DNA of 64,000 nt from a virus (IMGVR_UViG_2816332589_000001:72929-136928); one strand, 5' to 3'. Positions 12,618 to 37,995 are shown, counted from the stretch's first letter. The notes: generated from the letters alone by a model not told the origin. Translations and numbers: made by a program.

Positions 12618-13064
12618 TCAGGTGCCGAGAGCGTCGAGCGCTACCCGTTTGCTTGGCCACGGTCCACGCTCGCCGTCCGTGGCCGGATCGGTCGGCAGGG
12701 CCCACCACTGGCGCGGGGCGCGGCGTACGACCCGAAAGCGCCGGCCGGACCACCAGCGGTCACGGGGCAGGCCCATCCAGGCGTCCCGGGCCCTGACCCA
12801 TTCCTCGGTGCCGACCGCCTGTGCGATCTGCTCCAGCAGGTCCCGCCGCCGGAGGTGCGCGAAGATCAGCCCGCCGCCGGTCCCGTCCTTCAAGTGCTGC
12901 GCCCAGGTCGCGAAGGCGTTGCCGTGCAGGTGGTCCATGTACGGCTCCGCCGACCACAGTCCGCTCCGCGACCGGTGAGCGTGACGCACGACGAGCACCA
13001 CGCCGTCGATGTCGGCGTACCGCGTCTCCCGGTGCCGCGTGCTGCGCGGGGCCTGCCCGGTCAT
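12618..13064 (-). CDS. Hypothetical protein, last gene of the leftward array
   Basis: MTGQAPRSTRHRETRYADIDG...; coding-like codon usage. Confidence 0.6.
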   Translation of the reverse strand: MTGQAPRSTRHRETRYADIDGVVLVVRHAHRSRSGLWSAEPYMDHLHGNAFATWAQHLKDGTGGGLIFAHLRRRDLLEQIAQAVGTEEWVRARDAWMGLPRDRWWSGRRFRVVRRAPRQWWALPTDPATDGERGPWPSKRVALDALGT

Positions 13065-13078
13065 CGGGTCGGTGTAGC

Positions 13079-13501
13079 TCAGGCAGATGTCTGCGGGCCG
13101 CACGGCGCATCCTCTCCGTCGCGCTGGGGTTCTTCCGCACCTTCGGTGGTCTCGGGAGCGGAATCGTTCCTGCTGTCGGCGAGGAGCTGCTTCACGAGCC
13201 GGATCGGCACGCCAGTGGCCAGGGCGATATCGCCCAGCGTTGCCCGCCGCAGGGCCAGGGCCCTTACCGCCTCGGCCAGGGCCGCTGTACGGGCGTCCTC
13301 CGCGGCCCGCAGCTGCTCCAGCTCCGGCGTCGTCGGGACGATCGTGACTTCGGCGGTCACGTCGAGGAGTGCAAGCCCCTCCTCGACGTTCTTGCGCAGC
13401 GCCTTCAGCGTCCGCCCGTGCCCGTAGACCCCGTACTCGGGGACGCGCGTCGTCCAGCCCCGGCCGCGCCGGTCGGCCCGGCACTCGATGGTCTCGCTCA
13501 C
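13079..13501 (-). CDS. HicB-like antitoxin with C-terminal HTH
   Basis: RRGRGWTTRVPEYGVYGHGRTLKALRKNVEEGLAL matches the HicB N-terminal pattern; TLGDIALATGVP HTH; GTGA coupling to the recombinase gene. Confidence 0.7.
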   Translation of the reverse strand: MSETIECRADRRGRGWTTRVPEYGVYGHGRTLKALRKNVEEGLALLDVTAEVTIVPTTPELEQLRAAEDARTAALAEAVRALALRRATLGDIALATGVPIRLVKQLLADSRNDSAPETTEGAEEPQRDGEDAPCGPQTSA

Positions 13502-14712
13502 GCTCCGCTCTCCATGTCCTCGATGACCTGCTGCACGACCAGGTCCGGGATGGGGGTGGGCAGGACGATCTGCCGGCCACCGATCCGGTACAGCGTGTGC
13601 CCCCCGCTGCTGCGCACGGACGTGACGGTGAGTCCGTGCCGGCGGGCCGCGGCGCGGATACGCAGCAGCGGCCCGCCTTCCTCCGCCCCCGCGCGCAGGC
13701 TCGCGGTGACCTCTTGGGCCGCCTTCCACTCCTCCACGGTGACCACCGCCTCGTGCACGGGCCGCGGCGACCACACCCATTGCGAGACCGGGTTGTACTT
13801 GGAGAAACCGGGGCGGCCGGTGCGGGTCGCCCGACGGTTGTACACCTGGTAGCCGGTGAGTTTCGGGTTGGCGATCAGGCTTTCCACGCGGTTCCATGTC
13901 CACCGGTCCTCGATCGGGTACCGGTCGGGCTCCGCCTCCAGGATCGCGGCGATGTCTGAGCCCGTCAGGTGCTCCTCGCGCCGCAGCCGACACAGGGTCC
14001 GGGCCGCGTCGAACCGGCGCTCGTCGGGATGCCGGGCCAGCTTCTTCTTCGGCCGGACCACGCCGAACCGGCCGTCCCGTACGGGGGCGTTCTCATCGAC
14101 CACCGCGATGTACGGGTAGGGCGGGTAGCCGTGGTTCCAGCCGTTGATGGCGTGCTGGATCTGGCCGCCCATCGACATCTCCATCAGCGTGGCCCGGTAG
14201 ACCTCGGCATCGACCTGGCCGTACCGGCGAACGCGCAGCCGGCCGGACTCGGTGCCGCCCGTCGGCTCGTTGGCGTAGACGACCTCCACGCCGATCTTGC
14301 TCAGCTCGTGTTCCACGGTGAGGCTGGTCAGCATGTGGCGTGCCACCCGGTCGGAGCGCTCGGCCAGGACGTGGGTGACACCGAGCTGCTCGACCCGGTC
14401 CGCGAGGTCCTGGAAGCCGCCGTCGCGCGGGGTCGGCACGGCGAGCGCGTCGTACATCTCCTGCGGCGCGAGGCCCCGCAGCTCCGGGGGCAGCATCCCG
14501 GACTCGACATCCCAGAAGTACGCGACGAACTCCTCGCCGGGCTCCAGACGCGCGGAAGCGAGGGAGACCTGCCTCGGGATGGAGGTGGCCGGGTTCTGGT
14601 TGTCCTTGGTGCTGACCCTGCCGAGGAACGCCGAGCGGCGGGGGCGGGAGTCGGCCGGCTCGAAGGCGGGCATGTCGGTGAGGTCGATGGGCGGCCCGAA
14701 TGGATTGGTCAC
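13498..14712 (-). CDS. Serine recombinase (resolvase plus recombinase domain) with HicA-like C-terminal domain
   Basis: FLGRVSTKDNQ catalytic Ser, DVESG, ERSDRVAR, PPYPY, NPKLTG and HEAVVT motifs. The tail RSSGGHTLYRIGGRQIVLP is HicA-like. Confidence 0.85.
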   Translation of the reverse strand: MTNPFGPPIDLTDMPAFEPADSRPRRSAFLGRVSTKDNQNPATSIPRQVSLASARLEPGEEFVAYFWDVESGMLPPELRGLAPQEMYDALAVPTPRDGGFQDLADRVEQLGVTHVLAERSDRVARHMLTSLTVEHELSKIGVEVVYANEPTGGTESGRLRVRRYGQVDAEVYRATLMEMSMGGQIQHAINGWNHGYPPYPYIAVVDENAPVRDGRFGVVRPKKKLARHPDERRFDAARTLCRLRREEHLTGSDIAAILEAEPDRYPIEDRWTWNRVESLIANPKLTGYQVYNRRATRTGRPGFSKYNPVSQWVWSPRPVHEAVVTVEEWKAAQEVTASLRAGAEEGGPLLRIRAAARRHGLTVTSVRSSGGHTLYRIGGRQIVLPTPIPDLVVQQVIEDMESGA

Positions 14713-14806
14713 GGCATTCCTATGGAATGAAGGCCCGGTTGGGCGGTGAACGGTAGGAAGGTGGTGTGGCCTCGGAGCCCGGGGCCTGGTCGCCCCGGGG
14801 CCGGTG

Positions 14807-15754
14807 TCAGCGCTGGAGGGCGGCGGCCTGCTTCCACCACATCTCGCGCAGCGCGGCGTAATCGCGGGCCTGCGCGCACAGCCCGCGGTGCTCGCCCATG
14901 CCTCCCGACAGAGGCGTGTGCAGGTGCGGGATGACCGGGCGCAGCAGCTCGGCGTAGTCCTGGCCACCGAGAAAGATCACGTCGGCGTCGTACGTACCGA
15001 GGTCGAAGACCTGCTCAGCGAGCCGCTCGGGCGTGATGGCCTGCGGGTCGCCGATCGTCACGTCGTACGGGAGCAGCGGGCGCTCCAGGTCCACCAGGCC
15101 GTGCCGCGCGGACAGAATCCGGATGAGCGAGGCGTCGGTCAGGGCGTCGGCAGCCAGCCGCAGGGACCGGTGATACTGCCCGGTGTACAGCTCCCCCGCC
15201 GGGTAGCCCGGGTTGGCGTTCCCGTACTCGTTGTACCCGGGGTGCGGTGCCTTTTCCTGGCCGCACGCGATGATCACGATGCGGCGGCGGTGCACGTCGA
15301 TGCCGCCGCGCTGCCGGGCGTACGTCCGGCCGGCCGGGGTGAGATACAGGGAATAGCCGTGCTGGCCGAAAGACGTGGCGTAACCAGCGGCCTGGACGGC
15401 GCGGAGGGTGGGGGCGCGGAACCACCTTGCTCCTTCCCAGTACGCGCGGTCGTCCCGGCCGGGTACGAGCTGATCGGGACGACCGGCGGCCGTCACGATC
15501 GCCTCGTGCTGCACCGCGGGCAGCTTGGGCAGGAACGACTCGACCGCCGGTGCTGGAGCGGGGCCGTGCTGCTGCCGCCAGTGGTCCAGGGCCGCCCGTC
15601 CGGCCTCGGTCATGCGGTGGGTGCCGCCGTCGCCGGCGTGCCGGACGACCAGGCCGTCGGCCTCCAGCCGGGCGATGGCCGCGGCGTGGCCGGACACCAC
15701 ACCGTCGTCGTGGGCGTCGAGGATCTTTGCGCCCGTGGGGCTGAGCAGGCTCAT
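14807..15754 (-). CDS. Protein with N-terminal wHTH-like repeats and C-terminal DUF6884-like domain
   Basis: IVIIACGQEK...PAGELYTG...ILSARHGLV...PYDVTI...FLGGQDY. Confidence 0.7.
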   Translation of the reverse strand: MSLLSPTGAKILDAHDDGVVSGHAAAIARLEADGLVVRHAGDGGTHRMTEAGRAALDHWRQQHGPAPAPAVESFLPKLPAVQHEAIVTAAGRPDQLVPGRDDRAYWEGARWFRAPTLRAVQAAGYATSFGQHGYSLYLTPAGRTYARQRGGIDVHRRRIVIIACGQEKAPHPGYNEYGNANPGYPAGELYTGQYHRSLRLAADALTDASLIRILSARHGLVDLERPLLPYDVTIGDPQAITPERLAEQVFDLGTYDADVIFLGGQDYAELLRPVIPHLHTPLSGGMGEHRGLCAQARDYAALREMWWKQAAALQR

Positions 15755-15809
15755 GGAAGGTTCCTTTCGGCCCGGCCGGACGGTTCCGGCCGGGCGGTGA
15801 GCGGGTTGG

Positions 15810-16250
15810 TCAAGCGGTGCGGGAGTCGGGGTGCCGGTCCTCCCACGTCCAGGTGCGGCGGGCGGGGCCGCGGCCGGTGGCGTACCGGGCGGTCATGACG
15901 GCGTCCGTCTCGCACACCGAGGGCAGGCCGATGAGTTCGCGGGCGATGTGCTCGGCGAAGTCGTGGCGGACGCCGGCGCGCGGGTCGAGGCCGCGGACGG
16001 CCGCCCATGCGGCGCGGTCCACCTCCAGGCGCCAGCCGAGCGCCATGCGCACCCGCCCGTCACGCACGGAGAGCCGGGTCGGGCCGTAGCCGTACGCCCA
16101 CCCCTCGGCCTCGGCCAGGGCCTTGATATCGGTGATGGAGGCGGTGACGTAGCCGATCAGCTCCCGGGGGACCTCGGCCGCGTCGTACCCGTTGTCGTCG
16201 GCGAAGGAGTGCACGCCGACGTTCCACCACGTCTCAAGGCGGGTGATCAC
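15810..16250 (-). CDS. Hypothetical protein
   Basis: GTGA coupling to the upstream gene; array orientation. Confidence 0.6.
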   Translation of the reverse strand: MITRLETWWNVGVHSFADDNGYDAAEVPRELIGYVTASITDIKALAEAEGWAYGYGPTRLSVRDGRVRMALGWRLEVDRAAWAAVRGLDPRAGVRHDFAEHIARELIGLPSVCETDAVMTARYATGRGPARRTWTWEDRHPDSRTA

Positions 16251-16459
16251 GGTTCGCCGCCGAAGCACTCGCCGCAGGTCGCGCGCGGCTCCTCGGCGTG
16301 ATCCGGGCAGACCTCCGCGACCGTGTAGGGGGTGTTCCCGTCGTCGGCGTCGGTCAGGGCGTCGGCTACGGTCTGCGCTTCGCGGTGGCCAGCGTCGCCG
16401 TAGAACGGGCCATCGACCATCGCCGTGCCGTGTTCGAACACGCCGTACTCGGCGCTCAT
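16247..16459 (-). CDS. Small protein with CxxH...CxxC end
   Basis: ATGA coupling; CPDHAEEPRATCGEC. Confidence 0.6.
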   Translation of the reverse strand: MSAEYGVFEHGTAMVDGPFYGDAGHREAQTVADALTDADDGNTPYTVAEVCPDHAEEPRATCGECFGGEP

Positions 16460-17232
16460 GCCGGCCGCCGGTAGCGGTTGCACTCGCGGTCGTGCTGCTG
16501 GTTGTGACGCTCCTGGGCGTAGCAGTCGCAGTGACGGGAGACCGGGCTGGTCACCCAGTCGGCGGCGAGCGCCGCGCACGCGGCGGAGTCCTCGGCGCAG
16601 TCCACCAGGTCGTCGCCGCCGTCGCCGCCGTACACCGGGTCGCCGATCGGCTCCCCGTGCTCATCGTGGAGGAGCATCGACCAGCCGGTGTGACGGCCCC
16701 GGAGGTGCCGTACGGACCCGTTCTGGTCGGCGATCGACAGGTGACCGTACACGCCGCGGCCGAGGTGTACGGGGATCTCGTAGGTGTCGCTGTGGGGGCC
16801 GTAGATGATGGACAGTCCGGCGCCGGGGACGATGCCGTACTCGGCGAGTGCGGCCAGCATGTCGGACCCGGCGGTGCATCCGTCCAGCCACTCGGCGACC
16901 GCCTTCGCGCACAGCGTGGCTTCTTCGGCCGCGGTCTCCCGCCGGTCGTGCGCGGTGTCGTGGAGCCGCTTGACCTCCTGGAGCCCGTACGGGCCGCCCG
17001 GGGCCCATGCGTGCGCCTCGAAACCGGCCCACTCGAAGGGCCATTGGGCGTCGAACGCCTGCGAGGCGATCATGGCGTGCTGGGTGCTGGTGAGGCTGTC
17101 GGGGTCGGTGTCCGGCAGGTAGGCAAGTACGGCTTCGTCGCGCTGGTCGTAGTGGGCGGCCAGGCTGGTGTTGCGCAGTGCGGTCAGCATCGCCTCGGCG
17201 GCCGGCGGCGTGACCTTGTCGAGGGTGGTCAT
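16456..17232 (-). CDS. Hypothetical protein with a duplicated domain related to the neighbouring gene
   Basis: GAAAG RBS; ML(T/A)AL...A(E/A)(E/D)..CA..(V/A)A(E/D)W pattern occurs twice. Confidence 0.7.
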   Translation of the reverse strand: MTTLDKVTPPAAEAMLTALRNTSLAAHYDQRDEAVLAYLPDTDPDSLTSTQHAMIASQAFDAQWPFEWAGFEAHAWAPGGPYGLQEVKRLHDTAHDRRETAAEEATLCAKAVAEWLDGCTAGSDMLAALAEYGIVPGAGLSIIYGPHSDTYEIPVHLGRGVYGHLSIADQNGSVRHLRGRHTGWSMLLHDEHGEPIGDPVYGGDGGDDLVDCAEDSAACAALAADWVTSPVSRHCDCYAQERHNQQHDRECNRYRRPA

Positions 17233-17331
17233 GGAGAGTCTTTCGGTAGTCAGGAAGGAGATGGGCGGGAACCGGGGTTCCGCACACCCCCGCCCGTGCC
17301 GGAGCGCGGGCGGGCAGTGCGGCGCTCCGGG

Positions 17332-18330
17332 TCAGCCCTGTACGCGCGGGATCTCGAAGGCGTCGATGGCGCGGGCGACGTACGCGCAGTCCTCGGCGAG
17401 CGTGGAGCCGACGGGCGCGGGGTCGAGCACGTCGATGCACTCGCCGTCCCCGTCGTAGGCGGAAGCGCTCCACCGCTCGACGTGCTGAGAGGCGGGCCGG
17501 TCAACCTGCTCGTCGGAGATGATGCGGAAGTGCGGAACCTCGTACATGTCGGCCTCGGGCGTGCTGCGGTCGAGCGGTACGACGAGCCAGGTCTGTCCGC
17601 CTGCGCTGTCGCGGTAGGCAGGGAAGCCGTACGCGGCGAGAGCGGCGCGCAGAGCATCCCCGTCGGTGTGCGGGGGCGCGATGTCCGTGGGAGTCAGTTC
17701 CAGGCGCACGCCGGGCGCGGCGACGTACAGCCTGCCGTGGGGGTCGCGCAGCACGTAGCTCTGCTCCCGCTCGGACCACCGCATCAGCATCGCGCGGGCG
17801 CGGCTGCGGTTGACCGTGCCGTTGTGGAACTCCCGCCAGAAGAGGGCCGGGAAGCTGTGCGGGTCGGGGTGCAGCACGATCACCGTGTAGCCCGGGGCGG
17901 TCACTTCCTTGGGGCTGAAGTGCGGAAGTGGGGTCGCGAGCATCTGTATCGGCCCGTCCGTGCGCGGGTCCGGCCGGTCCAGCCACGCCCGTTCCAGCCG
18001 CGCGGACTCGTAGACGACCTCGGCGGCGGCGCTGAGCGCTGAGGCGTCCCGGTGCTCGCGAGCGAGCTGCACGCACTCCGCGGCGAGCTGGGCGCGCCTG
18101 GCGTCCGCTTCCGGGGACGGCGGGAACAGCCATCTGCTCGCGATGAGCTTTCCCGCCTCGGTACGGGCGCGGTCGATGGCCTCGTTCAGGCGCTGCACGG
18201 TGTTCTTGGCGGTGCGGCGCTCCTTGCAGGCGGCGGCGATGGCGTCGTTGAGGCGGGTGCGTTCCAGCGCGCGCAGGGCCTGAGAGCGGGCGTGAGTGGG
18301 CAGGTGGGCGAGGTACTGAGGTGTGGTCAC
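17332..18330 (-). CDS. Hypothetical protein (helical N-terminus, shared C-terminal domain)
   Basis: GGAG RBS; 332 aa; followed by a TGACC hairpin. Confidence 0.7.
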   Translation of the reverse strand: MTTPQYLAHLPTHARSQALRALERTRLNDAIAAACKERRTAKNTVQRLNEAIDRARTEAGKLIASRWLFPPSPEADARRAQLAAECVQLAREHRDASALSAAAEVVYESARLERAWLDRPDPRTDGPIQMLATPLPHFSPKEVTAPGYTVIVLHPDPHSFPALFWREFHNGTVNRSRARAMLMRWSEREQSYVLRDPHGRLYVAAPGVRLELTPTDIAPPHTDGDALRAALAAYGFPAYRDSAGGQTWLVVPLDRSTPEADMYEVPHFRIISDEQVDRPASQHVERWSASAYDGDGECIDVLDPAPVGSTLAEDCAYVARAIDAFEIPRVQG

Positions 18331-18459
18331 GGCAGGCTCCGGGAGGTGGAGGGGAAGCGGGCCGGCTGGCGCGGCCGGTCGTGGTGAAGGGAAGGTGCAG
18401 GAGTGGCGCGGGGCCGCGGGGTGGGGAGGCGGCGGGCGCCTCCCCGGGGCGGGCGCGTG

Positions 18460-18921
18460 CTACCGGCCGCACGCCTCGCACAGCACGGGACGCGGGGTGG
18501 CGGCGTACGCGGCCTGGACGTCCTCGGTCTCAGCGGCGGCCCACGCGCCGCGCTGCGCGGCCTCGTTGGCGGCGGCGTGCGCAGCGTCCATCACGGACGC
18601 GTGCGTGGTGACCTCGACCGCGTCGCTGTGCATCGTGCGGTGACGCCACAGGATGCCGTCCGCGTCAATGGGGGCGAGCCCGGCGATCACGCAGCAGTGC
18701 GGGTTGGCCAGGAAGGCGCTGATGAGGAATTCGGTGCCGTCGGCGCGGTAGCCGAGGTGGGCCCAGACGGTGTACGGGCCGAGGTGGCGCAGCTCGGAGG
18801 TGGTGCGCTCTGCGCTCTCCGTCAGAGCCTTGGTGGCGGCCCACACCTGCTCTTCGATCACAAGCCAGGGCTTCTTGGTCTCGGTGCGGGCGGGACGCTT
18901 GCGGGTGCGGGTGCTGGGCAT
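18460..18921 (-). CDS. Hypothetical protein behind conserved leader copy A
   Basis: GGAGG RBS; MPSTRTRKRPARTETKKPW... Confidence 0.7.
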   Translation of the reverse strand: MPSTRTRKRPARTETKKPWLVIEEQVWAATKALTESAERTTSELRHLGPYTVWAHLGYRADGTEFLISAFLANPHCCVIAGLAPIDADGILWRHRTMHSDAVEVTTHASVMDAAHAAANEAAQRGAWAAAETEDVQAAYAATPRPVLCEACGR

Positions 18922-19008
18922 GGCTGTGCCTCCGATGGTTGGTTGGGAGCGTTCGTTGGTCCCGCTCGCTCGTGCGGACCAACAAGGAAAACTGTACACC
19001 GTGTCCGG
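18922..19008 (-). promoter_or_regulatory. Conserved box plus leader hairpin, copy A
   Basis: GGACACGGTGTACAGT-tttcct-TGTTGGTCCGC-ACGAGCGA-GCGGGACCAAC-GAACGCTCC...GGAGG-ATG. Confidence 0.85.
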
Positions 19009-19103
19009 CGCGTGGGGGTAGGTCAGGCTCGGGATTTCCCGCTCCCGTGCTACCCCGCACCGGAGGGGGCCGGGCCGCCGCAGAAGGACGGCCCGGCGGG
19101 TGC

Positions 19104-19916: not shown

Positions 19917-20001
19917 GGGTGTGCCTTTCTGGTTGATGGGAGCGTTCGTTGGTCCCGCTCGCTCGTGCGGACCAACAAGGGAAACTGTACACCACGTCCG
20001 G
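19917..20001 (-). promoter_or_regulatory. Conserved box plus leader hairpin, copy B
   Basis: Nearly identical to copy A over about 65 bp. Confidence 0.85.
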
Positions 20002-20045
20002 CCATGGTGGGGGTGGGGCCCGACGGAAGTCCCGGGCCCCGCGCG

Positions 20046-20065
20046 GGGTGTTCCCACGGTGAACA
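20046..20065 (-). promoter_or_regulatory. Quasi-palindromic site TGTTCACCGTGGGAACACCC, copy 2
   Basis: Exact match to 7630-7649. Confidence 0.55.
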
Positions 20066-20081
20066 GCGGGCCGGGCTACGG

Positions 20082-21811: not shown

Positions 21812-21813
21812 GG

Positions 21814-30287: not shown

Positions 30288-30352
30288 CCGCCCGCCGTGT
30301 CCCCGGGCCCCATGCCGGCCCGGGGACACGGGCCCCGCAGAAGGAACCCGCC

Positions 30353-31236: not shown

Positions 31237-31287
31237 CCGAGGACCGTGATCAGCCACTTCTACGACGCCTGACCCCTTGGAGTCTCC

Positions 31288-32025: not shown

Positions 32026-32032
32026 CCACGCT

Positions 32033-32118
32033 CGGACGTGGTGTACAGTTTTCCTTGTTGGTCCGGCACGAGCGAGCCGGACCAACACCAACGCTCCAAC
32101 CCAACCGAAGGGACACCT
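32033..32118 (+). promoter_or_regulatory. Conserved box plus leader hairpin, copy E
   Basis: GGACGTGGTGTACAGT-tttcct-TGTTGGTCCGGC-ACGAGCGA-GCCGGACCAACA-CCAACGCTCC...GAAGGG-GTG. Confidence 0.85.
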
Positions 32119-33210
32119 GTGTCCGCGTACATCCGCGAGATCATCTCCGGCCTCAACAAGAACGCCCGCAACGCGATCATCGCCACTGCCAACGCAGAGG
32201 ACGGCCGCGTGCCGTACAGCGTGCACGACCGCACGAAGGACGCCCTCCACCGCAGGCGCCTGATCCGTGAGGTCACCAACCGCAGGGGCGGCTTCAACTG
32301 GTGCGTGCTCACCTGGACCGGCAAGCGGGTGGCCGCAGCCCTGGCCGAACGCGCCACCGCCCCGACGGCCACGCCGAAGACGGCACCCGCCTTCAAGCTG
32401 TCCCCGGCGGAAGCGGAACTCCAGTACGCCAACGCCGCCCGGCTCTTCGCCGCGCTGCACCCGGCCGCCGCCGAGATCGTCAACGGCTACCAGGAGAACG
32501 CGATCCAGACCGTGGTAGAGGGCGGCCCGCACTTCACCTGCGGGGAGGTGTGGGGGCAGATCGGCGCCGAACCCGGTCAGCGGCTCGCCTGGAACGCCGA
32601 CGATGACCCAGAGGAGTGGGCGACCGCCGACGGCTTCAACACAGTGTGGGCGCACATCAACCGGCTCGCCACCGCCGGGAAGCTGGACCTGGCCCGTTGG
32701 GATGCCCTGGTGACCGAAGCGCGTGACGTGCTCGCCACGGCGTCCGTACGGCCCGCGCCGGTCGTACTCGACAAGCGCCCGTCATCCTGGCAGGTGCTCT
32801 GGCACACCGAGTCTCCGCTGACTGGGGAGCAGTGGGCGGACCTGCCCGTCCACTCCGTGGTGCGCACCTCGCAACTGCGCGCCGGACAGGACTGGGCCAC
32901 CACCGACCAGCAACTCACCGCACGCGGCCTGTCCCGCTACGACTTCCCCGCCGCCGTGAGCGCCGGTCACGCCCTGGCACTGGCACAGGAACGCTGGCGT
33001 GAAGACGGCCCGCACTCCGCCTGGTTCGCCTTCCTGGACGGGGCCTCGGAAGAGATCGAGTCGCTGCGCGCCAAGTACAACCCGACCCCTGAGCAGGAGC
33101 GGCAGGCGTTCGCGTGGGCCATGGCCACGCTCGCCAACCCGGCCCCGGAACTCACCTTCGCCGAGGTGCAGGCCATCGCGTCCGGCCAGACCTCGATCGA
33201 CCAGGGCTGA
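32119..33210 (+). CDS. Hypothetical protein with N-terminal wHTH-like domain
   Basis: TKDALHRRRLI...LTWTGKRVA; behind leader copy E. Confidence 0.7.
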   Translation: MSAYIREIISGLNKNARNAIIATANAEDGRVPYSVHDRTKDALHRRRLIREVTNRRGGFNWCVLTWTGKRVAAALAERATAPTATPKTAPAFKLSPAEAELQYANAARLFAALHPAAAEIVNGYQENAIQTVVEGGPHFTCGEVWGQIGAEPGQRLAWNADDDPEEWATADGFNTVWAHINRLATAGKLDLARWDALVTEARDVLATASVRPAPVVLDKRPSSWQVLWHTESPLTGEQWADLPVHSVVRTSQLRAGQDWATTDQQLTARGLSRYDFPAAVSAGHALALAQERWREDGPHSAWFAFLDGASEEIESLRAKYNPTPEQERQAFAWAMATLANPAPELTFAEVQAIASGQTSIDQG

Positions 33211-33300
33211 CGACCCGCACCGGGCGGGAGCGCGCGCCACAAGCCGCTCCCGCCCCCACCCTCACCAACCCGACCAGACGACACCGCACGGAGCAGCACC

Positions 33301-33888
33301 ATGAGCGCGATCCCCACCCACCTTGAGTACGTCGCCGCCGAACTCGAAGCGCGCGCCGCCTACCGCGACATCTGGAACCACGGCTACATCGGCGACTCCA
33401 AGCCGTGGCGCTACGCCACCGCCGCCGATGCCCTCACCAAGGAACTGTCCGACAACCCCGGCACCCGCACCCTGACCGCGATCCGCGCGAACCTCGCGCA
33501 CCCCCACGGGGCCCGCACCCCCGTGCCGTCGGCCAAGGCCGGACGCGCCGCGCTGCGCGCCCTGGGCACCCTCACCCGCGACCAGCGCAGCAAGCACACG
33601 AACGCCGCTGAACTGATTCACGAGGCGACCAGCGATGCCGTCGCCGATGCCTTCCACCTGGCCGACGAATACCACCTCGGCCCCGACGACATCCACGACC
33701 TGCACGACATGCGCGTCAGCCCTTCCGGCTTCACCGATCACGTCGAACAGCCCGTGCGTGACCTCGTGCTCCTGGTCGGCAACCTGCTCGCGCTCGCAAG
33801 CGCCTACGGATGGGCCGAGGAAAGCGTCATATGGCGTGCGTACGACCGGTTCGAAGAGGAGTACATGGCGGCTGCCGACGCCACCTGA
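33301..33888 (+). CDS. Hypothetical protein
   Basis: GGAG RBS; ends in AYDRFEEE. Confidence 0.7.
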   Translation: MSAIPTHLEYVAAELEARAAYRDIWNHGYIGDSKPWRYATAADALTKELSDNPGTRTLTAIRANLAHPHGARTPVPSAKAGRAALRALGTLTRDQRSKHTNAAELIHEATSDAVADAFHLADEYHLGPDDIHDLHDMRVSPSGFTDHVEQPVRDLVLLVGNLLALASAYGWAEESVIWRAYDRFEEEYMAAADAT

Positions 33889-34002
33889 CCCGCCCCGGGG
33901 CGCGCCGGTGGGCGCGCCCCGCCACCTCAGTCCCCATGCCGGCCGGGGGCCAGCATCTGCGCCCCGGACGCAAGGCCCCGGCCCCCGGTACCCACCACCG
34001 CC

Positions 34003-34557
34003 ATGAACGCAAACGACACCATCGACCTCATCGGCGAGATACACCCCTGGCTCGCCCGCTACGACGCCTTGGCCGCCCGGCACGCCGCGAACCTGGCTCC
34101 CTACCTCAACGAGGATGGCGACGTGCTCGACAGTGAGTACCCCCGGTACGACGAGAAGCGGTTCGACAACCTCACCGAGGCGGACGAATTCCTCGACTCC
34201 CTCGCGGCATGCCTGCGGGAACTCGTCGGCCCGCCGGTCCCCGGCAACGCCTTCACCCTGACGTTCGCCGGGCCGGAGCGGCACGACGGCGAGAAACCGT
34301 ACGCCTTCGTCGTCAACGGCTCTGATCTGCCCGACGCGGGCCGCACGCTGCTGCACCTGCCGTCCTTCCGCGAGTGGTTCGCCGAACAGGCCGGATGGGA
34401 CGACACCCCGCCGGACGTGCTGTACCTCGCGGAAGAGTCCCACCCCGGAATCCCTGAGTACGGCTACTTCAACGACCTCCGCCGCGAGCAGGCCGCATCC
34501 CCCGAGTGCGGCAGCGCCCCGGAGCTGCCACCCGTGCCGCAGCTGCTCCTTACCTGA
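34003..34557 (+). CDS. Hypothetical acidic protein
   Basis: Coding-like codon usage; array orientation. Confidence 0.7.
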   Translation: MNANDTIDLIGEIHPWLARYDALAARHAANLAPYLNEDGDVLDSEYPRYDEKRFDNLTEADEFLDSLAACLRELVGPPVPGNAFTLTFAGPERHDGEKPYAFVVNGSDLPDAGRTLLHLPSFREWFAEQAGWDDTPPDVLYLAEESHPGIPEYGYFNDLRREQAASPECGSAPELPPVPQLLLT

Positions 34558-34611
34558 TCACCGATCCCGCCCGGCCGTACGCCGGGCGGCTACCGGAAGG
34601 ACTTCCCCAGC

Positions 34612-35112
34612 ATGACCACCACGCCCGCCGACGTTGCCGTTGTTCTCCAACGCCTGATGATCGCCACCTCCGCTTCCGAGGAGAACGCGGTCATCGAGAG
34701 TGCGGTCAACGCCGGTCTGATGTGGCGCTGCCCCTGCGGGGGCACCAACCCATACGACGCCAACGCATGCGATCTGTGCGCCGCTGACCGGCTGTGGGCC
34801 GCCGACGCAACGCCGCCCCGGTGCGAGTACGGGAAGCTGCTGATCGATCTCCGCGAGGGCCTGAAGTTCTGGTTCGATGATCTGGCCCCCGCCCGCCGCC
34901 CGGCCGCCGTCGGCTTCCGCATCACCGAGTACGACAACGGCCCGGCCTGGGCCACGTGGGGCGCCACCGTCTACTTCACCGACTCCCCGGACGGCGTGGA
35001 GTACCCGCTCGACTTCGAGGGCTCGTGGGTCGCTGACGCTCTGGTCGAGATCAGTGCGTTCGACCCGCCGCAGACCGGCGACACCCTGCGCGTCGTCGTC
35101 CCCGCCATCTGA
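34612..35112 (+). CDS. Hypothetical protein with RanBP2-like zinc finger
   Basis: WRCPCGGTN......CDLC; GAAGGA RBS. Confidence 0.7.
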   Translation: MTTTPADVAVVLQRLMIATSASEENAVIESAVNAGLMWRCPCGGTNPYDANACDLCAADRLWAADATPPRCEYGKLLIDLREGLKFWFDDLAPARRPAAVGFRITEYDNGPAWATWGATVYFTDSPDGVEYPLDFEGSWVADALVEISAFDPPQTGDTLRVVVPAI

Positions 35113-35166
35113 CCACCCGCCGGGGCGTGGCCGCGCTGCGCCCCGGCCCCTGAAGGGAACCCCCTC

Positions 35167-35766
35167 ATGAACCTGCGCGACTCCATCGAAATCGGCGTCA
35201 CCCGCACCCCGGCCGCCGCCGTTCCTGCGCCCCGTACCGCCCTGGCCGCCGTCACCGAGCCCGCTTCGGGCACCGTGGTCACGCTCGCCGACGGCGGTAT
35301 CACCTCGGCGCGGCTGGCCCCCACGTCGTTCGCCGTCCCCGACGACATACGGCAGGCGACCGCGCACTGGTCGCTGGAGCAGGTGACCGCCGCCGCCTCC
35401 GCCTTCCGGGCGGAGGCCATCCGCCGCCGCGAGAGCCAGTTCGTGGACGTGCTGCGCGCCCTCTTCTTCGTCCCCCCGGCCGAAGCGCCCCCTGTCGCTC
35501 GCGTGGAGTTCGTGACGGACGGGCCTTTCGCGAACGGCGTGTTCTGGGACGAGTCGCGTGTCTACCTGCACCACGAGGACGGCTCGGTCGCTCCGTTCGA
35601 GGACTCCCCCGACGCCGACGAGGACGACGAGTACGCCGCCCTGGACGAGGTGTTCCGGGAGATGCTGACGGACATCGCTGCCGACAACCCGCCTCAGCAC
35701 GGTGACCGCCTGGTCGTGGATCTCGCCACCGGCGAGTTCGAGCGTTCCGGGAAGTGGGCGCAGTAA
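35167..35766 (+). CDS. Hypothetical protein, C-terminal domain paralogous to the upstream gene
   Basis: LTDIAADNPPQHGDRLVVD versus LVEISAFDPPQTGDTLRVV. Confidence 0.7.
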   Translation: MNLRDSIEIGVTRTPAAAVPAPRTALAAVTEPASGTVVTLADGGITSARLAPTSFAVPDDIRQATAHWSLEQVTAAASAFRAEAIRRRESQFVDVLRALFFVPPAEAPPVARVEFVTDGPFANGVFWDESRVYLHHEDGSVAPFEDSPDADEDDEYAALDEVFREMLTDIAADNPPQHGDRLVVDLATGEFERSGKWAQ

Positions 35767-35872
35767 CCATCTGCCCCCGTGCGCCCCGGCCGCGCGCTGC
35801 GGCCGGGGCGTAACGGATCACCACCCCCGCACCGTCTACCTCCCAGCAGCGACCCGACAGGAGAATTCCCCG

Positions 35873-36214
35873 ATGCCGCCGACCACCCGCGTCTTCCACT
35901 ACGACGCCGCCCCGGTGCGCGTACGGGTGCGCGGCGGCGAGCCGGTGTGGTTCACGCGGGACCTGGCCGCCGCGCTCGGCGTGCGGTTCCCGCCCGGCCC
36001 GCTGCTGCCCGCCTCGGAGAACAGCCTGCCGGGCATGGCGACGGCCGCGCAGGTGTGGACGGTAGTGGAGCGGGCCGGCTGTGGTGCGCCCGACGCGTTC
36101 CGGGCCTGGATGACGGAGGTGTCCACGCGGATACTCGCGCGGCCCGTCCCCACGCCGGCGTCGGTCGCGCGTCCCGCCCATCCCGCCTCGCTGCGAAGGA
36201 CTCACACCGCATGA
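35873..36214 (+). CDS. Stand-alone Bro-N-like domain protein
   Basis: VFHYDAAPVRVRVRGGEPVWFTRDLAAALG...AFRAWMTEV. Confidence 0.7.
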   Translation: MPPTTRVFHYDAAPVRVRVRGGEPVWFTRDLAAALGVRFPPGPLLPASENSLPGMATAAQVWTVVERAGCGAPDAFRAWMTEVSTRILARPVPTPASVARPAHPASLRRTHTA

Positions 36215-36666
36215 CCCTCTACGACGACAACACGAACTTCGCGCTCGCCGATCCGACCAGCCCAACCCGGTTCCCGCACCGCGTGCCCGTGAAGTGGGTG
36301 TTCGATCCCGACGGGGTCGAGCCGCCGTTCGCATACAGCGTCGGCTTGGCCGCCCGGCCCGGCCGTGCCTACGAGCTTGCGACGACCGGGCTCCCCGACC
36401 GGGTTGCCTATGCCGTCATCACGGGCGCCGCCGACCAGCTCGTCGCCGATGGGCTGGACCCCGCCGACGGCATGGAACTGGACGAGGTGCTGGAAGGTGG
36501 CTACGTCGTCCGCCTGTGGCGCGTCACCGATACCTCCCGGTGCACGGCCGCCCGCGCCGAGTCCGGCCCTGACGTGGCCGTGTGGCAGGTCCTCGTCCCC
36601 GACAAGTGGGGCCACTTCCCCGGCGATCCGCACTACGCGGAAGCCGACGCCCAGCCGCTCATGTAG
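36211..36666 (+). CDS. DUF4262-like protein
   Basis: WVF...PPFAYSVGL...EL..TGL...QVLVPDKWGHFPGD. Confidence 0.75.
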   Translation: MTLYDDNTNFALADPTSPTRFPHRVPVKWVFDPDGVEPPFAYSVGLAARPGRAYELATTGLPDRVAYAVITGAADQLVADGLDPADGMELDEVLEGGYVVRLWRVTDTSRCTAARAESGPDVAVWQVLVPDKWGHFPGDPHYAEADAQPLM

Positions 36667-36701
36667 CGGCACGCCCGACCGTTCCTCTCGAAAGGCCGCC
36701 C

Positions 36702-37094
36702 GTGAAGTCCGCACTGCCCCGCCACCCCCGCCTGCTCCCGGCCGCCGCCGCGTCCGTGATCGCGTTCATCGGGCTGACCCTGCTCGCATCGTGCGGCACT
36801 CGCGACGACGGAATGCCGTCCTGTCGCGTGTCCCGCAACGGGGCCGTGGAAATCGTGCTGGACGGCGTGCGCCCGTGCGTGCTGTACGGCTCCGGTGACG
36901 GTAGGGCGGTCGGAGCCGACACCAACCCCGGGCCCGCCTCCGGGTCGGTGAAGGCCGAGAAGAAGCCGGGCGGCACGGTGAAGAGCCCGAAGGCCCCGGC
37001 CGCGAAGAACCCGAAGGCGCCCGCCGCGCCCGCGCCGAAGGTTCCGGCCGCGCCCGCCCCCCGTCCGGCCGCCCCGGCGCCCCGAATCCGCTGA
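36702..37094 (+). CDS. Putative lipoprotein with Pro/Ala/Lys tail
   Basis: LLASC lipobox; KAPAA repeats. Confidence 0.65.
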   Translation: MKSALPRHPRLLPAAAASVIAFIGLTLLASCGTRDDGMPSCRVSRNGAVEIVLDGVRPCVLYGSGDGRAVGADTNPGPASGSVKAEKKPGGTVKSPKAPAAKNPKAPAAPAPKVPAAPAPRPAAPAPRIR

Positions 37095-37175
37095 CCGGCC
37101 GCCGGGGCGCCCGAGCCACAAGGCGCCCCGGCCGTGCACCCTTCCGCGGATTCGTTCTCCGACAGGAAGGTGCCC

Positions 37176-37523
37176 ATGTCCGACTCCCCGCCCTCCGGGC
37201 GCACCATCGCCCTGGTCGCCGGTGCCGTCTTCGTCATCATCGGCGTCATGATCGCCGCGCTCGCCGTCTTCGGTGGCAGTGGCAGCGCGCCCGCCCCGAA
37301 GCCGACGCCCCAGCCTCCCCGGCCCACCATCGAACCGAGCCGCCCGCCGACGCTGCGGCCCAGTGCCGAGCCGACCACACCCGACGGCTGCCTGCTGTAC
37401 GACATGGAGTGCCAGCACCAGAGCGGCGGTATCTCGGGCGGCATGACCGCTGTGCCGTCCCGGCCGCCGGAGGGCGACACCGTCGGCACCACGACCGGTG
37501 GGGCGGTCGGCGGCACCGGCTGA
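37176..37523 (+). CDS. Small membrane-anchored protein
   Basis: N-terminal TM helix and Pro-rich linker. Confidence 0.65.
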   Translation: MSDSPPSGRTIALVAGAVFVIIGVMIAALAVFGGSGSAPAPKPTPQPPRPTIEPSRPPTLRPSAEPTTPDGCLLYDMECQHQSGGISGGMTAVPSRPPEGDTVGTTTGGAVGGTG

Positions 37524-37611
37524 CCCGCAGGGAGCAGTGCCGCGCCCCGGACGGTGTACCCACCGCCCGGGGCGCGCGCCGTTGTCAGTGGTCGCTGCGA
37601 GGCTGGAGCAC

Positions 37612-37995
37612 ATGACGGTGAGCACGCCCACGCTCCTCGACGGCCCCGAGCTGGACGCCTTGGCCCGGCGATTGCTGGTGCCCGTATGGAATGCCCTGAG
37701 CAGCCGCGCGGACGCGCTGCGCCGCAGCCTGCCGCCGCGCCCGGATGCCGCGTCCGGCCGCTACGAATGGTGGCGTGCTCTGGACGCCGAGCAGGCCCGC
37801 CGGGCGGCCCTCCTGGACCGGCTGAACGCGTTGTGCGGACATCTCGCCGGGCGCCCCGCGCTCGGGTACGACCCCAGTGACCCGATGCCGGACGAAGCGC
37901 TGGAGGAAGCCGATGGCTTCGTGAGCGAACCGGTGGCGGCGCTCGTGGCCGTGTACCGAGGCCGGCGGGCGGACCGGTCGGCGCCAGCCCGGTAA
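37612..37995 (+). CDS. Hypothetical protein
   Basis: GGAG RBS. Confidence 0.6.
   Translation: MTVSTPTLLDGPELDALARRLLVPVWNALSSRADALRRSLPPRPDAASGRYEWWRALDAEQARRAALLDRLNALCGHLAGRPALGYDPSDPMPDEALEEADGFVSEPVAALVAVYRGRRADRSAPAR

What the first reader, a model, noticed from the sequence alone, without database searches (positions are those of the whole stretch)
12618..37995. Symmetric divergent array of about 35 small unknown genes built as repeated modules
Seen: every credible gene from 12.6-26.85 kb is on the minus strand and every one from 27.1-38 kb is on the plus strand. Both arms start at a 265-bp control region holding inverted copies of the same box and leader. Units follow one grammar: optional box plus leader, RBS, ORF(s), stop plus GC hairpin. 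Inference: an early-expressed host-takeover or anti-defence platform whose shared junction sequences allow cassettes to be gained, lost and shuffled, functionally like an integron or a plasmid leading region but for a TraB/phage element.
Basis: partly seen in the sequence, partly recalled or inferred. Interest (0 to 1): 0.78.

Follow-up and report, generated by a model that had tools for sequence, protein, structure and literature searches.

The report
Divergent dark-gene arms of Streptomyces phage-plasmid
The region is the non-structural half of a rare 137-kb Streptomyces plasmid that is also a phage: about 39 unknown genes in two back-to-back arms that share a repeated promoter-like box and a conserved leader hairpin, and that do not behave like integron cassettes.

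Summary
By codon-usage gene calls, 19 genes at 12618-26851 are all on the minus strand and 20 at 27117-39096 are all on the plus strand. They diverge from a 265-bp region that carries inverted copies of one ~90-nt unit. Six such units lie in the arms. 24 of 38 arm genes end in a strong GC hairpin, against 16-19% elsewhere on the replicon.

The replicon is a circular ~137-kb phage-plasmid. It has portal, capsid, tape measure and TerL, plus ParAB, TraB, an ECF sigma factor and a giant DarB-like ORF.

The unit has two separable parts:
- A 19-nt promoter-like box, 8 near-exact copies plus 1 degenerate, all co-oriented with the next gene.
- A leader hairpin, 11 copies. Its stem varies with compensation while the 8-nt loop stays constant: 32 of 32 copies from six elements fold, with 21 different 5' arms.

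Five related elements keep gene order and box positions, but gene content varies. Rearranged junctions are no commoner at boxes (adjacency kept in 7/16) than elsewhere (50/108).

The integron-like cassette reading is therefore not supported. A shared transcriptional/post-transcriptional regulon with moron-like gene turnover fits best. Function and timing of the arm genes remain untested.

The parts
12618..26851 (-). Minus arm: 19 co-directional genes (46-404 aa). Includes a serine-recombinase module (12618-14712) and a DUF6884 gene (14807-15754).
   Evidence: Gene calls; Pfam; synteny.
26852..27116 (.). 265-bp divergent control region. Two inverted box+leader units flank a partly conserved AT-rich palindrome (CCCTATAGGG in W and G1).
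27117..39096 (+). Plus arm: 20 co-directional genes. Includes the missed gene 31288-32025, DUF4262 (36211-36666), and a W-only PCMT-like methyltransferase (38227-39096).
26853..26940 (-). Box + leader hairpin unit heading 26084-26851 (family F21).
   Evidence: nhmmer; alignments.
26997..27115 (+). Box + leader unit heading 27117-27446 (F22). It has a ~31-nt insertion, a second TANNNT-like motif, and its own stem class.
27959..28043 (+). Box + leader unit heading 28045-28812 (F23).
32032..32117 (+). Box + leader unit heading 32119-33210 (F26). Perfect 11-12-bp stem with loop ACGAGCGA.
19918..20002 (-). Box + leader unit heading 19104-19916 (F12).
18924..19009 (-). Box + leader unit heading the W-only gene 18460-18921. 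It is 93-95% identical to the neighbouring unit and is part of a moron-like insertion.
27117..27446 (+). F22: 109-aa protein, first gene of the plus arm. A conserved Arg-rich N-terminal helix (residues 3-24) precedes a compact alpha/beta domain. Distant relatives of that domain are fused to Bro-N, P22_AR_N or HTH_17/MerR domains. Candidate regulator.
4088..4166 (+). Degenerate box + leader hairpin (loop GACGAGCAA) heading 4167-4403, divergent from the ECF sigma gene.
3070..3777 (-). ECF-type sigma factor (Sigma70_r2 + r4). Identity is 65-73% in the four box-bearing relatives and 33% in the sister element.
43371..43389 (+). Box without leader hairpin, 76 nt upstream of 43466-44503. That gene is followed by TerL (44767-46533).
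60481..60545 (-). Leader hairpin (CGGCGC / loop ACGAGCGA / GCGCCG) + AACGCTCC + RBS, without a box, heading 60205-60480.

Best explanation
The region is the non-structural, accessory half of a circular ~137-kb Streptomyces phage-plasmid. It is organised as two divergently transcribed arms of mostly orphan genes.

Expression is coordinated by an element-specific two-part module:
- (i) A 19-nt box ending in a TANNNT-type motif (TACAGT) acts as promoter and/or operator. It sits 7 nt before the hairpin, so the transcript would begin at the base of the stem.
- (ii) An RNA leader follows: a 9-13-bp hairpin presenting an invariant 8-nt loop (ACGAGCRA), then ACGCTCC, a C/A-rich tract, the RBS and the start codon. 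I infer that this leader acts post-transcriptionally. It would protect the 5' end and/or serve as a recognition site for an element-encoded nucleic-acid-binding regulator. F22 is the best candidate for that regulator, and the ECF sigma factor is a candidate for reading the box.

The GC hairpin after most arm genes acts as a T-tract-less terminator/attenuator or a 3' stabiliser. It insulates each gene as a nearly autonomous unit.

Gene content turns over by ordinary moron-like insertion, loss, replacement and tandem paralog expansion at gene boundaries. It does not turn over by recombination at the boxes.

Shown: the anatomy, conservation, covariation, distribution and turnover pattern. Inferred: promoter activity, the transcription start, RNA-level action, which factor binds, and any early or anti-defence role.
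For: Replicon type.
- The contig ends overlap by 99 nt, so it is circular.
- Phage genes: portal, head protease, major head, tape measure, tail fibre, Erf; TerL.
- Plasmid and other genes: ParA/ParB and a 5,639-aa methylase + SNF2 helicase ORF; TraB and a tyrosine integrase.

Box.
- 8 of 8 core matches (<= 4 mismatches) are intergenic and co-oriented, 65-147 nt upstream of the next start. A ninth, degenerate copy is at 4088.
- In box-containing spacers the order is stop, GC hairpin, box, leader.
- The hairpin-less copy at 43371 keeps the box only through TACATTTTC, which places the functional 3' edge at the TANNNT motif.

Selection on the unit. It is 83-91% identical in nucleotides between elements, while the arm proteins are 35-85% identical.

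Hairpin.
- 96.9% of 195 cells are paired; 3 of 9 pairs show compensatory changes; 0 of 500 shuffles reach the observed value; slid controls give 21-47%.
- 32 of 32 copies from six elements fold around the loop, with 21 distinct 5' arms. Loop variants are ACGAGCGA x15, ACGAGCAA x8 and CACAGCGA x5.
- The sister plasmid has an entirely different stem but nearly the same loop.
- One-sided changes are mostly G.U on the sense strand.

Leader independent of box. Three box-less copies lie 35-48 nt before start codons, one of them between two genes of the same strand.

GC hairpins. They are arm-specific and present in the relatives' arms at 49-59% of genes.

Turnover. Order is collinear and box positions are fixed. 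Adjacency is kept at 7/16 box junctions against 50/108 others. The W-only unit is bounded by hairpins.

Candidate regulators.
- The sigma factor is conserved on the same replicon in R, G1 and G2; in G3 it lies on another contig of a fragmented assembly.
- F22 is present in 5 of 5 elements and in the sister element, always as the first plus-arm gene.
- Its family includes fusions to phage regulator DNA-binding domains: Bro-N 3, P22_AR_N 2 and HTH_17 4 of 95 members.
Against: - There is no transcript evidence of any kind. No sequencing run was listed, so promoter, transcription start and RNA-level action are all inferred.
- The tool's sigma-70 consensus scan found 0 promoter-like sites in the region. 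The box has no conserved -35 element.
- ECF sigma factors are not usually associated (recalled) with TANNNT-type -10 motifs, so the sigma-box link is weak.
- Thermodynamics alone is unremarkable for several leaders: z-scores run from +0.57 to -3.74, and only 2 of 6 are below -2.
- The sequences are related, so the shuffle controls overstate significance.
- The motif ACGCTCC is altered to ACGCCC in G3 copies and is absent from the sister lineage. Its role is therefore unclear.
- F22 is predicted to be folded, and it has no structural neighbour (best Foldseek E 0.45; best VIA-align Z 4.2). Its co-occurrence with the hairpin could be mere co-inheritance.
- My gene calls are home-made.
Confidence: 0.6

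Rival explanations
1. Integron-like or leading-region-like cassette platform. The repeated box/leader and hairpins would be junction sequences at which gene cassettes are captured, lost and shuffled.
For: - Gene content does vary: 22 of 39 W arm genes are not universal.
- One W-only gene carries its own box and hairpin, and the two adjacent boxes are 93-95% identical.
- A serine recombinase sits at the distal end of the minus arm in 3 of 5 elements.
- Four plus-arm spacers share a 13-mer.
Against: - Order is collinear in 5 of 5 elements, and box positions are conserved.
- Junction disruption is equal at box and non-box junctions (7/16 vs 50/108 kept, p = 1.0).
- Most variable slots have no box.
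- The W-only insertion is bounded by hairpins and a box-less leader, not by box-box joints.
- The unit also heads core operons outside the arms.
- The recombinase module is itself variable, being absent from R and G2.
- The hairpins share no common core.
- The element moves by TraB and phage particles; no relaxase was seen in the proteins scanned, and the relative is typed non-mobilizable.
Confidence: 0.07
2. The leader hairpin is a recruitment site for processive antitermination, analogous to lambda nut/N, HK022 put, or pLS20 conAn. RNA polymerase that has transcribed the hairpin, perhaps with the Arg-rich protein F22 bound, would read through the many post-gene hairpins in the arms.
For: - The promoter-proximal hairpin has a sequence-invariant loop and freely varying stem, on both divergent arms.
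- Terminator-like hairpins follow 63% of arm genes, yet only six promoter-like boxes serve 39 genes.
- F22 is a 109-aa protein with a conserved Arg-rich N-terminal helix. It is encoded first after the central leader in 5 of 5 elements and in the sister element.
- Bipartite protein+RNA antitermination is known on conjugative elements (PMC8191782; search listing and start of abstract seen).
Against: - Leader copies also sit between genes, 35-48 nt before start codons, with no box. This fits a translation or processing role better.
- The Erf/replication operon has the leader but few internal hairpins (4 of 10 long spacers in that sector).
- F22 is predicted to be folded, not disordered.
- No antitermination family was detected in Pfam or Rfam.
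- There are no transcript data.
Confidence: 0.2
3. The box is chiefly an operator for an immunity or maintenance repressor that silences both arms in the plasmid-prophage state. This would resemble dispersed, transcription-oriented stoperators in cluster A mycobacteriophages or dispersed operators of phage-plasmids. Promoter function would lie elsewhere or overlap.
For: - There are nine dispersed, asymmetric sites, all intergenic and all oriented with transcription.
- The part upstream of TACAGT differs between our lineage and the sister lineage, as expected for immunity specificity.
- A further palindrome lies midway between the central boxes.
- Stoperators are described as numerous repressor sites that stop elongation (PMC9283540; search listing and start of abstract seen).
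Against: - The sites are not inside operons at most gene junctions. They sit only at unit heads, each followed at a fixed 7 nt by the leader.
- The conserved TANNNT-type motif at the 3' edge looks like a -10 element.
- No repressor has been identified.
- This reading is not exclusive of the best explanation.
Confidence: 0.2
4. The hairpin acts at the DNA level, for example as a cruciform, as a single-strand promoter of the kind used in plasmid leading regions, or as a recombinase or transposase site.
For: Inverted repeats with compensated arms would also be preserved by a DNA structure. ssDNA promoters are known in leading regions (PMC11541004; search listing and start of abstract seen).
Against: - G.U-type one-sided changes occur on the sense strand only.
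- The hairpin is strictly co-oriented with, and 25-50 nt upstream of, start codons with an RBS context.
- TraB-type transfer moves double-stranded DNA (established knowledge; mentioned in PMC12282955, passages read).
- No HUH or relaxase gene was seen in the proteins scanned.
Confidence: 0.04

Closest known systems
Phage early/accessory regions with morons (independent promoter-gene-terminator units in mosaic tailed-phage genomes)
   Same: - Long co-directional runs of small orphan genes beside the structural module.
- Gene-by-gene presence/absence between relatives on a collinear backbone.
- At least one unit (18460-18921) is a complete promoter-like box + ORF + hairpin insertion.
   Different: - Here most genes, not just the insertions, are hairpin-punctuated (63%).
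- The same ~90-nt promoter/leader module is reused 6 times in the arms and about 11 times on the replicon.
- The host element is a TraB-bearing phage-plasmid.
Lambdoid pL/pR with nutL/nutR and N (also HK022 put; pLS20 conAn, PMC8191782)
   Same: - Divergent promoters, each followed by a structured RNA element.
- A small basic protein is encoded first on one arm.
- Many terminator-like hairpins lie downstream.
   Different: - No homology was detected.
- The loop is 8 nt on a 9-13-bp stem.
- The module recurs internally and between genes.
- F22 is predicted to be folded.
- Read-through is untested.
Mycobacteriophage stoperators (PMC9283540) and dispersed repressor operators of phage-plasmids
   Same: Multiple asymmetric sites dispersed over the non-structural genome, in intergenic DNA, all oriented with transcription.
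   Different: - There are only 9 sites, all at operon heads and all coupled to a -10-like motif.
- Most are also coupled to an RNA hairpin.
- No cognate repressor is known.
Integrons and plasmid leading-region anti-defence islands (PMC11541004)
   Same: An array of small, mostly unknown, same-strand genes with hairpin-forming DNA between them, on a mobile element.
   Different: - There is no IntI/attI/attC system, and no single Pc promoter.
- Gene order is fixed.
- No ssDNA-transfer machinery was seen.
- No known anti-defence family was found in the arms. The DarB-like giant ORF and SSB lie elsewhere on the replicon.
Streptomyces plasmid-phage pZL12 and ~120-130-kb Streptomyces plasmids such as pZL1 (NC_023316.1)
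   Same: - Streptomyces replicons combining TraB with long runs of small hypothetical genes.
- pZL1 shares a homologue of 28045-28812 (45% identity).
   Different: - pZL1-type plasmids have a single ~40-kb unidirectional array.
- They lacked the box and the loop-signature hairpins in the 40.7 kb and 22.5 kb scanned.
- What I say about pZL12 is recalled. Only search listings that mention it were seen.

Membership tests
Integron | An IntI-type tyrosine recombinase gene adjacent to attI and a single cassette promoter at one end of the array | tested here: not met
   The only Phage_integrase-domain gene is at 62788-63963, about 24 kb beyond the array. The recombinase at the array edge is a serine recombinase, present in 3 of 5 elements. 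The array has two divergent arms and six promoter-like units.
Integron | attC sites: imperfect hairpins with shared core sites at every cassette boundary | tested here: not met
   The post-stop hairpins are near-perfect GC palindromes of unrelated sequence. The only shared element is a 13-mer in 4 plus-arm spacers. No explicit attC covariance model was run.
Integron | Cassette order and content shuffled between relatives, with breakpoints at the recombination sites | tested here: not met
   Order is collinear in 5 of 5 elements. Adjacency is kept at 7/16 box junctions against 50/108 non-box junctions.
Conjugative-plasmid leading region | oriT/relaxase-based ssDNA transfer, with the region entering first | tested here: not met
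   The transfer gene found is an FtsK/SpoIIIE-type TraB. The relative is typed non-mobilizable with no relaxase. No dedicated relaxase search was run on this replicon.
Conjugative-plasmid leading region | Enrichment of known anti-defence/establishment families (ArdA/ArdC, Ssb, PsiB, orphan methylases) | tested here: inconclusive
   4 of 37 arm proteins have Pfam hits, and none is a known anti-restriction family. One W-only PCMT-like methyltransferase is present. SSB (680-1150) and the DarB-like giant ORF lie outside the arms.
Phage-plasmid | Tailed-phage structural and packaging genes plus plasmid partition functions on one circular replicon | tested here: met
   Portal, protease, major head, tape measure; TerL; ParA/ParB; 99-nt end overlap.
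Phage moron | An autonomous promoter-ORF-terminator unit present in one genome between genes that are adjacent in a relative | tested here: met
   The unit of box, leader, 18460-18921 and hairpin lies between F12 and F11, which are adjacent in G1. The flanking spacer is homologous. Promoter and terminator activity are inferred.
Lambda N/nut-type antitermination | Promoter-proximal RNA hairpin with a sequence-specific loop on each early operon | tested here: met
   32 of 32 copies fold with a conserved loop and variable stems. This is an analogy only; there is no homology.
Lambda N/nut-type antitermination | A small Arg-rich RNA-binding protein that modifies RNA polymerase to read through terminators | not testable with these tools
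   F22 has a conserved Arg-rich helix. Binding and read-through need experiments.
Stoperator-type immunity system | Many asymmetric repressor sites oriented with transcription across the genome | tested here: inconclusive
   9 of 9 sites are co-oriented and intergenic. They occur only at operon heads, and no repressor has been identified.
Any Rfam RNA family | A match to a curated covariance model | tested here: not met
   cmscan of 12000-40000 at E <= 1 gave only one chance-level miRNA hit, at 30294-30333.

The most novel reading that the evidence does not exclude
The ACGAGCRA-loop hairpin plus ACGCTCC leader is a new cis-regulatory RNA of actinobacterial phage-plasmids. It would be read by the Arg-rich protein F22, or by the element's ECF sigma/RNA polymerase. 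It would work as a nut/put-like switch: only polymerases or mRNAs carrying it would read through, or be translated past, the terminator-like hairpins that punctuate some 39 orphan genes. A single RNA-protein interaction would then gate the whole accessory half of the element after infection, conjugation or induction.
Probability: 0.2. Interest if true: 0.75.

Novelty: new variant of a known kind. Interest (0 to 1): 0.5.

Why it matters
- It defines a rare family of Streptomyces elements that combine a tailed-phage body, plasmid partition and TraB-type conjugation. At least five members plus a sister lineage were seen here.
- About a quarter of each replicon is a hairpin-punctuated bank of roughly 35-40 orphan genes under one shared control module.
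- The leader hairpin has an invariant loop on freely varying, compensated stems. It occurs ~11 times per element and matches no Rfam family. That makes it a concrete, testable candidate for a new regulatory RNA-protein pair in actinomycetes, and a possible portable expression part for Streptomyces engineering.
- The analysis also shows that a striking repeat 'grammar' need not mean cassette exchange. Here the repeats mark regulation, while gene turnover follows ordinary phage mosaicism.

Tried and rejected
- Megablast of the 25-kb array against phages found no match. Against plasmids it found only patchy hits.
- The search for related loci with protein 22583-22990 found no relative in viral contigs or genome contigs.
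- The look-up of sequencing runs listed no run and no RNA holder.
- The sigma-70 consensus and T-tract terminator scans showed no enrichment.
- The Rfam scan found nothing.
- F22 fold searches found no significant neighbour (Foldseek best E 0.45; VIA-align best Z 4.2).
- ESM Atlas searches for 32119-33210 and 26084-26851 gave no usable lead (best score 0.82).
- Giant ORF as an element-encoded RNA polymerase reading hairpin promoters: only methylase and SNF2/ResIII helicase domains were detected in its first 3,000 aa, and nothing in the last 2,639 aa.
- ECF-style reading of the box (-35 at CGGAC, -10 at TTGTTGG): rejected. The hairpin-less copy at 43371 does not keep the second element, and the start would fall inside the stem.
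- Pseudoknot between the loop (GAGCG) and ACGCTCC: considered but not adopted. G3 copies weaken it and the sister lineage lacks it.
- SD sequestration by ACGCTCC: no consistent pairing.
- MAFFT alignment of the loop-centred segments broke register. It was replaced by a gap-free stack.
- Literature searches on phiC31 early promoters / conserved inverted repeats and on Streptomyces TraB phage-plasmids found nothing that describes this module. Paper supplements were not consulted.

Full report
OBSERVATION

The window is 71% G+C, so raw ORF lists are uninformative. I called genes by codon-usage log-odds trained on long high-GC3 ORFs.
- From 12618 to 26851 there are 19 genes, all on the minus strand.
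- From 27117 to 39096 there are 19 genes, all on the plus strand.
- One further plus-strand gene, 31288-32025, was missed by my caller. It was recovered because it has GC3 0.87 and is 65% identical over 236 aa to the gene in the same slot of a relative.

Sizes are 46-404 aa with a median of 175.

The arms are separated by exactly 265 bp (26852-27116). PGAP annotation of the nearest plasmid relative shows the same divergent layout independently.

Most of the proteins are unknown.
- 4 of 37 arm proteins scanned have a Pfam hit: a serine recombinase, DUF6884, DUF4262 and a PCMT-like methyltransferase.
- 2 of 20 scanned have a PHROG hit, both of unknown function.

THE REPEATED UNIT

The repeat finder found a 33-66-nt repeat in both orientations. 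Aligning the six upstream regions in gene orientation shows a ~90-nt unit that ends at the start codon.

An nhmmer profile finds six full copies in the arms (E 1e-14 to 3e-23). Each lies immediately upstream of a start codon and is co-oriented with it: before 18921(-), 19916(-), 26851(-), 27117(+), 28045(+) and 32119(+). The plus copy carries a ~31-nt insertion.

WHAT THE REPLICON IS

The window is the last 64 kb of a single 136,928-nt contig. Its ends overlap by 99 nt, which indicates a circle. It encodes:
- portal, head protease, major head protein, tape measure, a tail-fibre-like protein and Erf;
- large terminase at window 44767-46533;
- ParA/ParB, and a 5,639-aa ORF next to the portal with Eco57I-type methylase and SNF2/ResIII helicase domains;
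- a TraB-type FtsK/SpoIIIE protein (55709-57700) and a tyrosine integrase;
- SSB and an ECF-type sigma factor at 3070-3777.

It is therefore a TraB-bearing phage-plasmid. The finding is its non-structural accessory half.

RELATIVES

The unit is rare.
- blastn: 1 of 72,556 plasmid records (NZ_CP107821.1, 'R') and 0 of 50,697 phage records.
- A stringent 28-letter pattern: 4 assemblies among the species genomes, and no viral contig.
- 2 of 401 sampled Streptomyces genomes, one of them already known.

Each carrier has 4-5 copies. In three of the four carriers all copies lie on one contig; two of those contigs are 131 and 134.5 kb.

I fetched three arrays (G1-G3) and compared five elements. All have the divergent layout, the central box pair, and boxes at the same backbone positions: before F11/F12, F21, F22, F23/F24 and F26.

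A sister lineage of ~130-kb plasmids (NZ_CP108441.1 and others) shares the blueprint and an F22 homologue as first plus-arm gene, but lacks our box by blastn.

ANATOMY OF THE UNIT: TWO SEPARABLE PARTS

(a) The box.
- The 19-nt core, allowing up to 4 mismatches, occurs 8 times on the replicon. All 8 are intergenic and co-oriented, 65-147 nt upstream of the next gene. A ninth, degenerate copy heads 4167-4403 beside the sigma gene.
- It ends in TACAGT. That fits the TANNNT form of actinobacterial -10 elements (recalled). It is followed by TTTCCKT and then the hairpin.
- The sister unit aligns without gaps and has TATTGT at the same place, with the same 7-nt spacing. The 10 nt upstream differ.
- The copy before the terminase operon (43371) keeps the box through TACATTTTC and then diverges, with no leader hairpin.
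- No -35 element is conserved, and the sigma-70 consensus scan finds nothing.

(b) The leader.
- On 22 copies from five elements, a 9-pair helix is paired in 96.9% of 195 cells. 3 pairs show compensatory changes (for example G-C 14, C-G 6). 0 of 500 shuffles reach the observed value, and slid registers give 21-47%.
- On a gap-free, loop-anchored stack of 32 copies from six elements, 32 of 32 fold into 9-13 bp enclosing the loop. There are 21 distinct 5' arms. The loop is ACGAGCGA (15), ACGAGCAA (8), CACAGCGA (5, all from the sister) or one of four single variants.
- Stem classes are unrelated. Examples are GTTGG.../...CCAAC, GGCGGTGACGG/CCGTCACCGCC in the central copies, TGTGGC/GCCACA at genome 70993, and GTGTGGGGCGA/TCGCCCCACAC in the sister.
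- One-sided changes are mostly G.U on the sense strand.
- Three further copies have no box but do have the loop, then ACGCTCC, an RBS and a start codon 35-48 nt downstream. One lies between two same-strand genes, before Erf.
- In total there are 11 leader modules, 6 of them in the arms.
- The unit is 83-91% identical in nucleotides between elements, while the arm proteins are 35-85% identical. The whole unit is therefore under selection.
- No Rfam family matches.
- Thermodynamic z-scores alone are mixed, from +0.57 to -3.74. The case rests on conservation and covariation, and the sequences are related, so the shuffle statistics are generous.

THE HAIRPIN GRAMMAR

Nearly every spacer of 40 nt or more begins, right after the stop codon, with a strong GC hairpin, followed by a short RBS-bearing stretch.
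- 25 of 27 post-stop 50-mers fold at <= -20 kcal/mol, against 24% of 389 coding controls (p 4e-14).
- The feature is arm-specific: 24 of 38 arm genes, against 6/34 (structural block), 4/25 and 6/32 elsewhere on the same replicon.
- The relatives' arms show 49-59%.
- The hairpins lack T tracts.

DOES GENE CONTENT CHANGE AT THE REPEATS?

Clustering all array proteins gives a collinear backbone. 15 families are present in all five elements. Only two families (F43, F48) change slot. Some apparent singletons are diverged slot-mates.

Of the 39 W arm genes, 17 belong to 5/5 families, 17 to families in 2-4 elements, and 5 are W-only.

For each W junction I asked whether the two flanking families are adjacent in each of the four relatives.
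- Box-containing junctions: adjacent in 7 of 16 evaluable comparisons.
- Box-free junctions: adjacent in 50 of 108 (Fisher p = 1.0). Before the missed gene was added the figures were 8/16 and 49/104.
- Comparisons that involve a W singleton were set aside: 4 of 20 at box junctions and 24 of 132 at box-free junctions.

So content does vary, mostly at box-free gene boundaries, while order is fixed.

The one clear box-associated event is the W-only gene 18460-18921.
- In G1, F12 is followed directly by F11.
- W has hairpin, box, leader, ORF and hairpin inserted between them.
- F11 keeps a box-less leader homologous to G1's.

This is a moron-like insertion bounded by hairpins, not a box-box joint. 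Tandem paralog expansion also occurs (F18 x1-3, F24 x1-3, and F20 in both arms).

CANDIDATE REGULATORS

F22 (27117-27446, 109 aa) is the first plus-arm gene in 5 of 5 elements and in the sister element.
- Its N-terminus is a conserved Arg/Ala-rich stretch.
- AlphaFold gives pLDDT 85: a helix at residues 3-24, then a compact alpha/beta domain.
- No structural neighbour was found.
- An exhaustive profile search finds 116 representative clusters at E <= 1e-3.
- I scanned 95 sequences (the query plus 94 of the hits). Among them, 3 carry Bro-N, 2 P22_AR_N, 4 HTH_17 and 2-3 MerR domains.

In other phages this C-domain is therefore attached to DNA-binding heads of regulator or antirepressor type. In F22 the head is an Arg-rich helix. 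It resembles, from memory, the arginine-rich RNA-binding motifs of lambdoid N proteins, but that is an analogy only.

The ECF sigma factor is 65-73% identical in the four box-bearing relatives and 33% in the sister, whose box differs. This is compatible with co-divergence, but equally with overall divergence.

INTERPRETATION

The best-supported reading has three parts.
- The box/leader is a regulatory module defining a regulon. That regulon spans the arms, the Gam-like/O-like initiator/Erf operon, a sigma-neighbour operon and, as box only, the terminase operon.
- The post-gene hairpins are terminators, attenuators or 3' stabilisers that make each arm gene nearly autonomous.
- Gene turnover is ordinary phage-type mosaicism.

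The integron-like or leading-region-like mechanism fails its own stated refutation test, because the breakpoints are unrelated to the repeats.

Whether the arms are expressed early and whether they counter host defences remains open. Nothing in Pfam or PHROGs identifies an anti-defence gene in them. The obvious anti-restriction candidate, the DarB-like giant ORF, lies next to the portal instead.

The boldest reading still allowed is a nut/put/conAn-like antitermination or translational switch built on the leader loop and F22.

LIMITS

- No transcript data could be obtained.
- The closest relatives (the contigs behind P0002-P0004) could not be fetched.
- The gene calls are my own.
- Of the papers cited, I saw only search listings and the starts of abstracts, plus passages of PMC12282955. 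Supplements were not consulted.

Noticed in passing
genome C1:18476-35395 (outside the window; locus L005:476-17395): A 5,639-aa ORF lies directly after the portal gene. Its first 3,000 aa carry Eco57I-type methylase and SNF2/ResIII helicase domains; nothing was detected in the last 2,639 aa. It resembles (recalled) the virion-packaged anti-restriction polyprotein DarB.
   Followed up: partly
window 55709-57700(-), with the phage structural genes on the same circle: A TraB-type FtsK/SpoIIIE translocase sits on a replicon that also encodes a complete tailed-phage body and ParAB. The element may therefore spread both by particles and by Streptomyces dsDNA conjugation.
   Followed up: partly
window 41347-41474: Six copies, in alternating orientation, of a ~19-20-nt near-palindromic motif (GTGCGCTGGAGCGCA-like). 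They lie between an HTH gene (40592-41332) and the genes upstream of the terminase. They could be an operator array or a packaging/partition site.
   Followed up: partly
window 12618-14712(-): A three-gene module with a 404-aa serine recombinase (Resolvase + Recombinase domains) sits between the amidase and the DUF6884 gene. The recombinase pair F05-F06 is present in W, G1 and G3 and absent from R and G2, so it is itself an indel at the distal end of the minus arm.
   Followed up: partly
window 26966-26975: An AT-rich perfect palindrome, CCCTATAGGG, lies midway between the two central boxes. It is conserved in G1 and present in variant form in R, G2 and G3. It may be a shared operator for both divergent promoters.
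   Followed up: partly
window 28813, 29267, 30307, 33934 (+); one reverse copy near 27819: The 13-mer CCCCATGCCGGCC recurs in four plus-arm post-stop hairpin regions of this element only. It is absent from the other loci checked (L001-L003 and the rest of the replicon). It probably reflects local duplication with the F24 paralogs, or gene conversion.
   Followed up: partly
window 48990-49041 and 49739-49790: A 52-nt direct repeat, 98% identical, brackets about 750 bp that contain 49127-49624 and most of 49611-49796.
   Followed up: no
window 61076-61150: A ~79-nt inverted repeat (86% in self-blast) lies between the divergent genes 60584-61057(-) and 61252-61950(+).
   Followed up: no
window 23052-24137, 28883-30287, 25023-25760 and 30613-31236: Arm families F18 (1-3 tandem copies), F24 (1-3 copies) and F20 (one copy in each arm) expand and contract between elements. 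This would be expected for host-interaction genes.
   Followed up: partly
locus L002 (pZL1, NC_023316.1) 1-40693: pZL1-type plasmids carry a ~40-kb unidirectional run of about 50 small genes downstream of TraB. It includes ArdC-like, ParB-N, methyltransferase, NUDIX and GGDEF genes. This is a different solution to the same 'bank of small genes' theme.
   Followed up: partly
window 3070-3777(-) and 2706-3059(-): An ECF sigma factor is followed by a 117-aa ORF with no Pfam hit, a possible anti-sigma. A degenerate box/leader points away from it, towards 4167-4783.
   Followed up: partly
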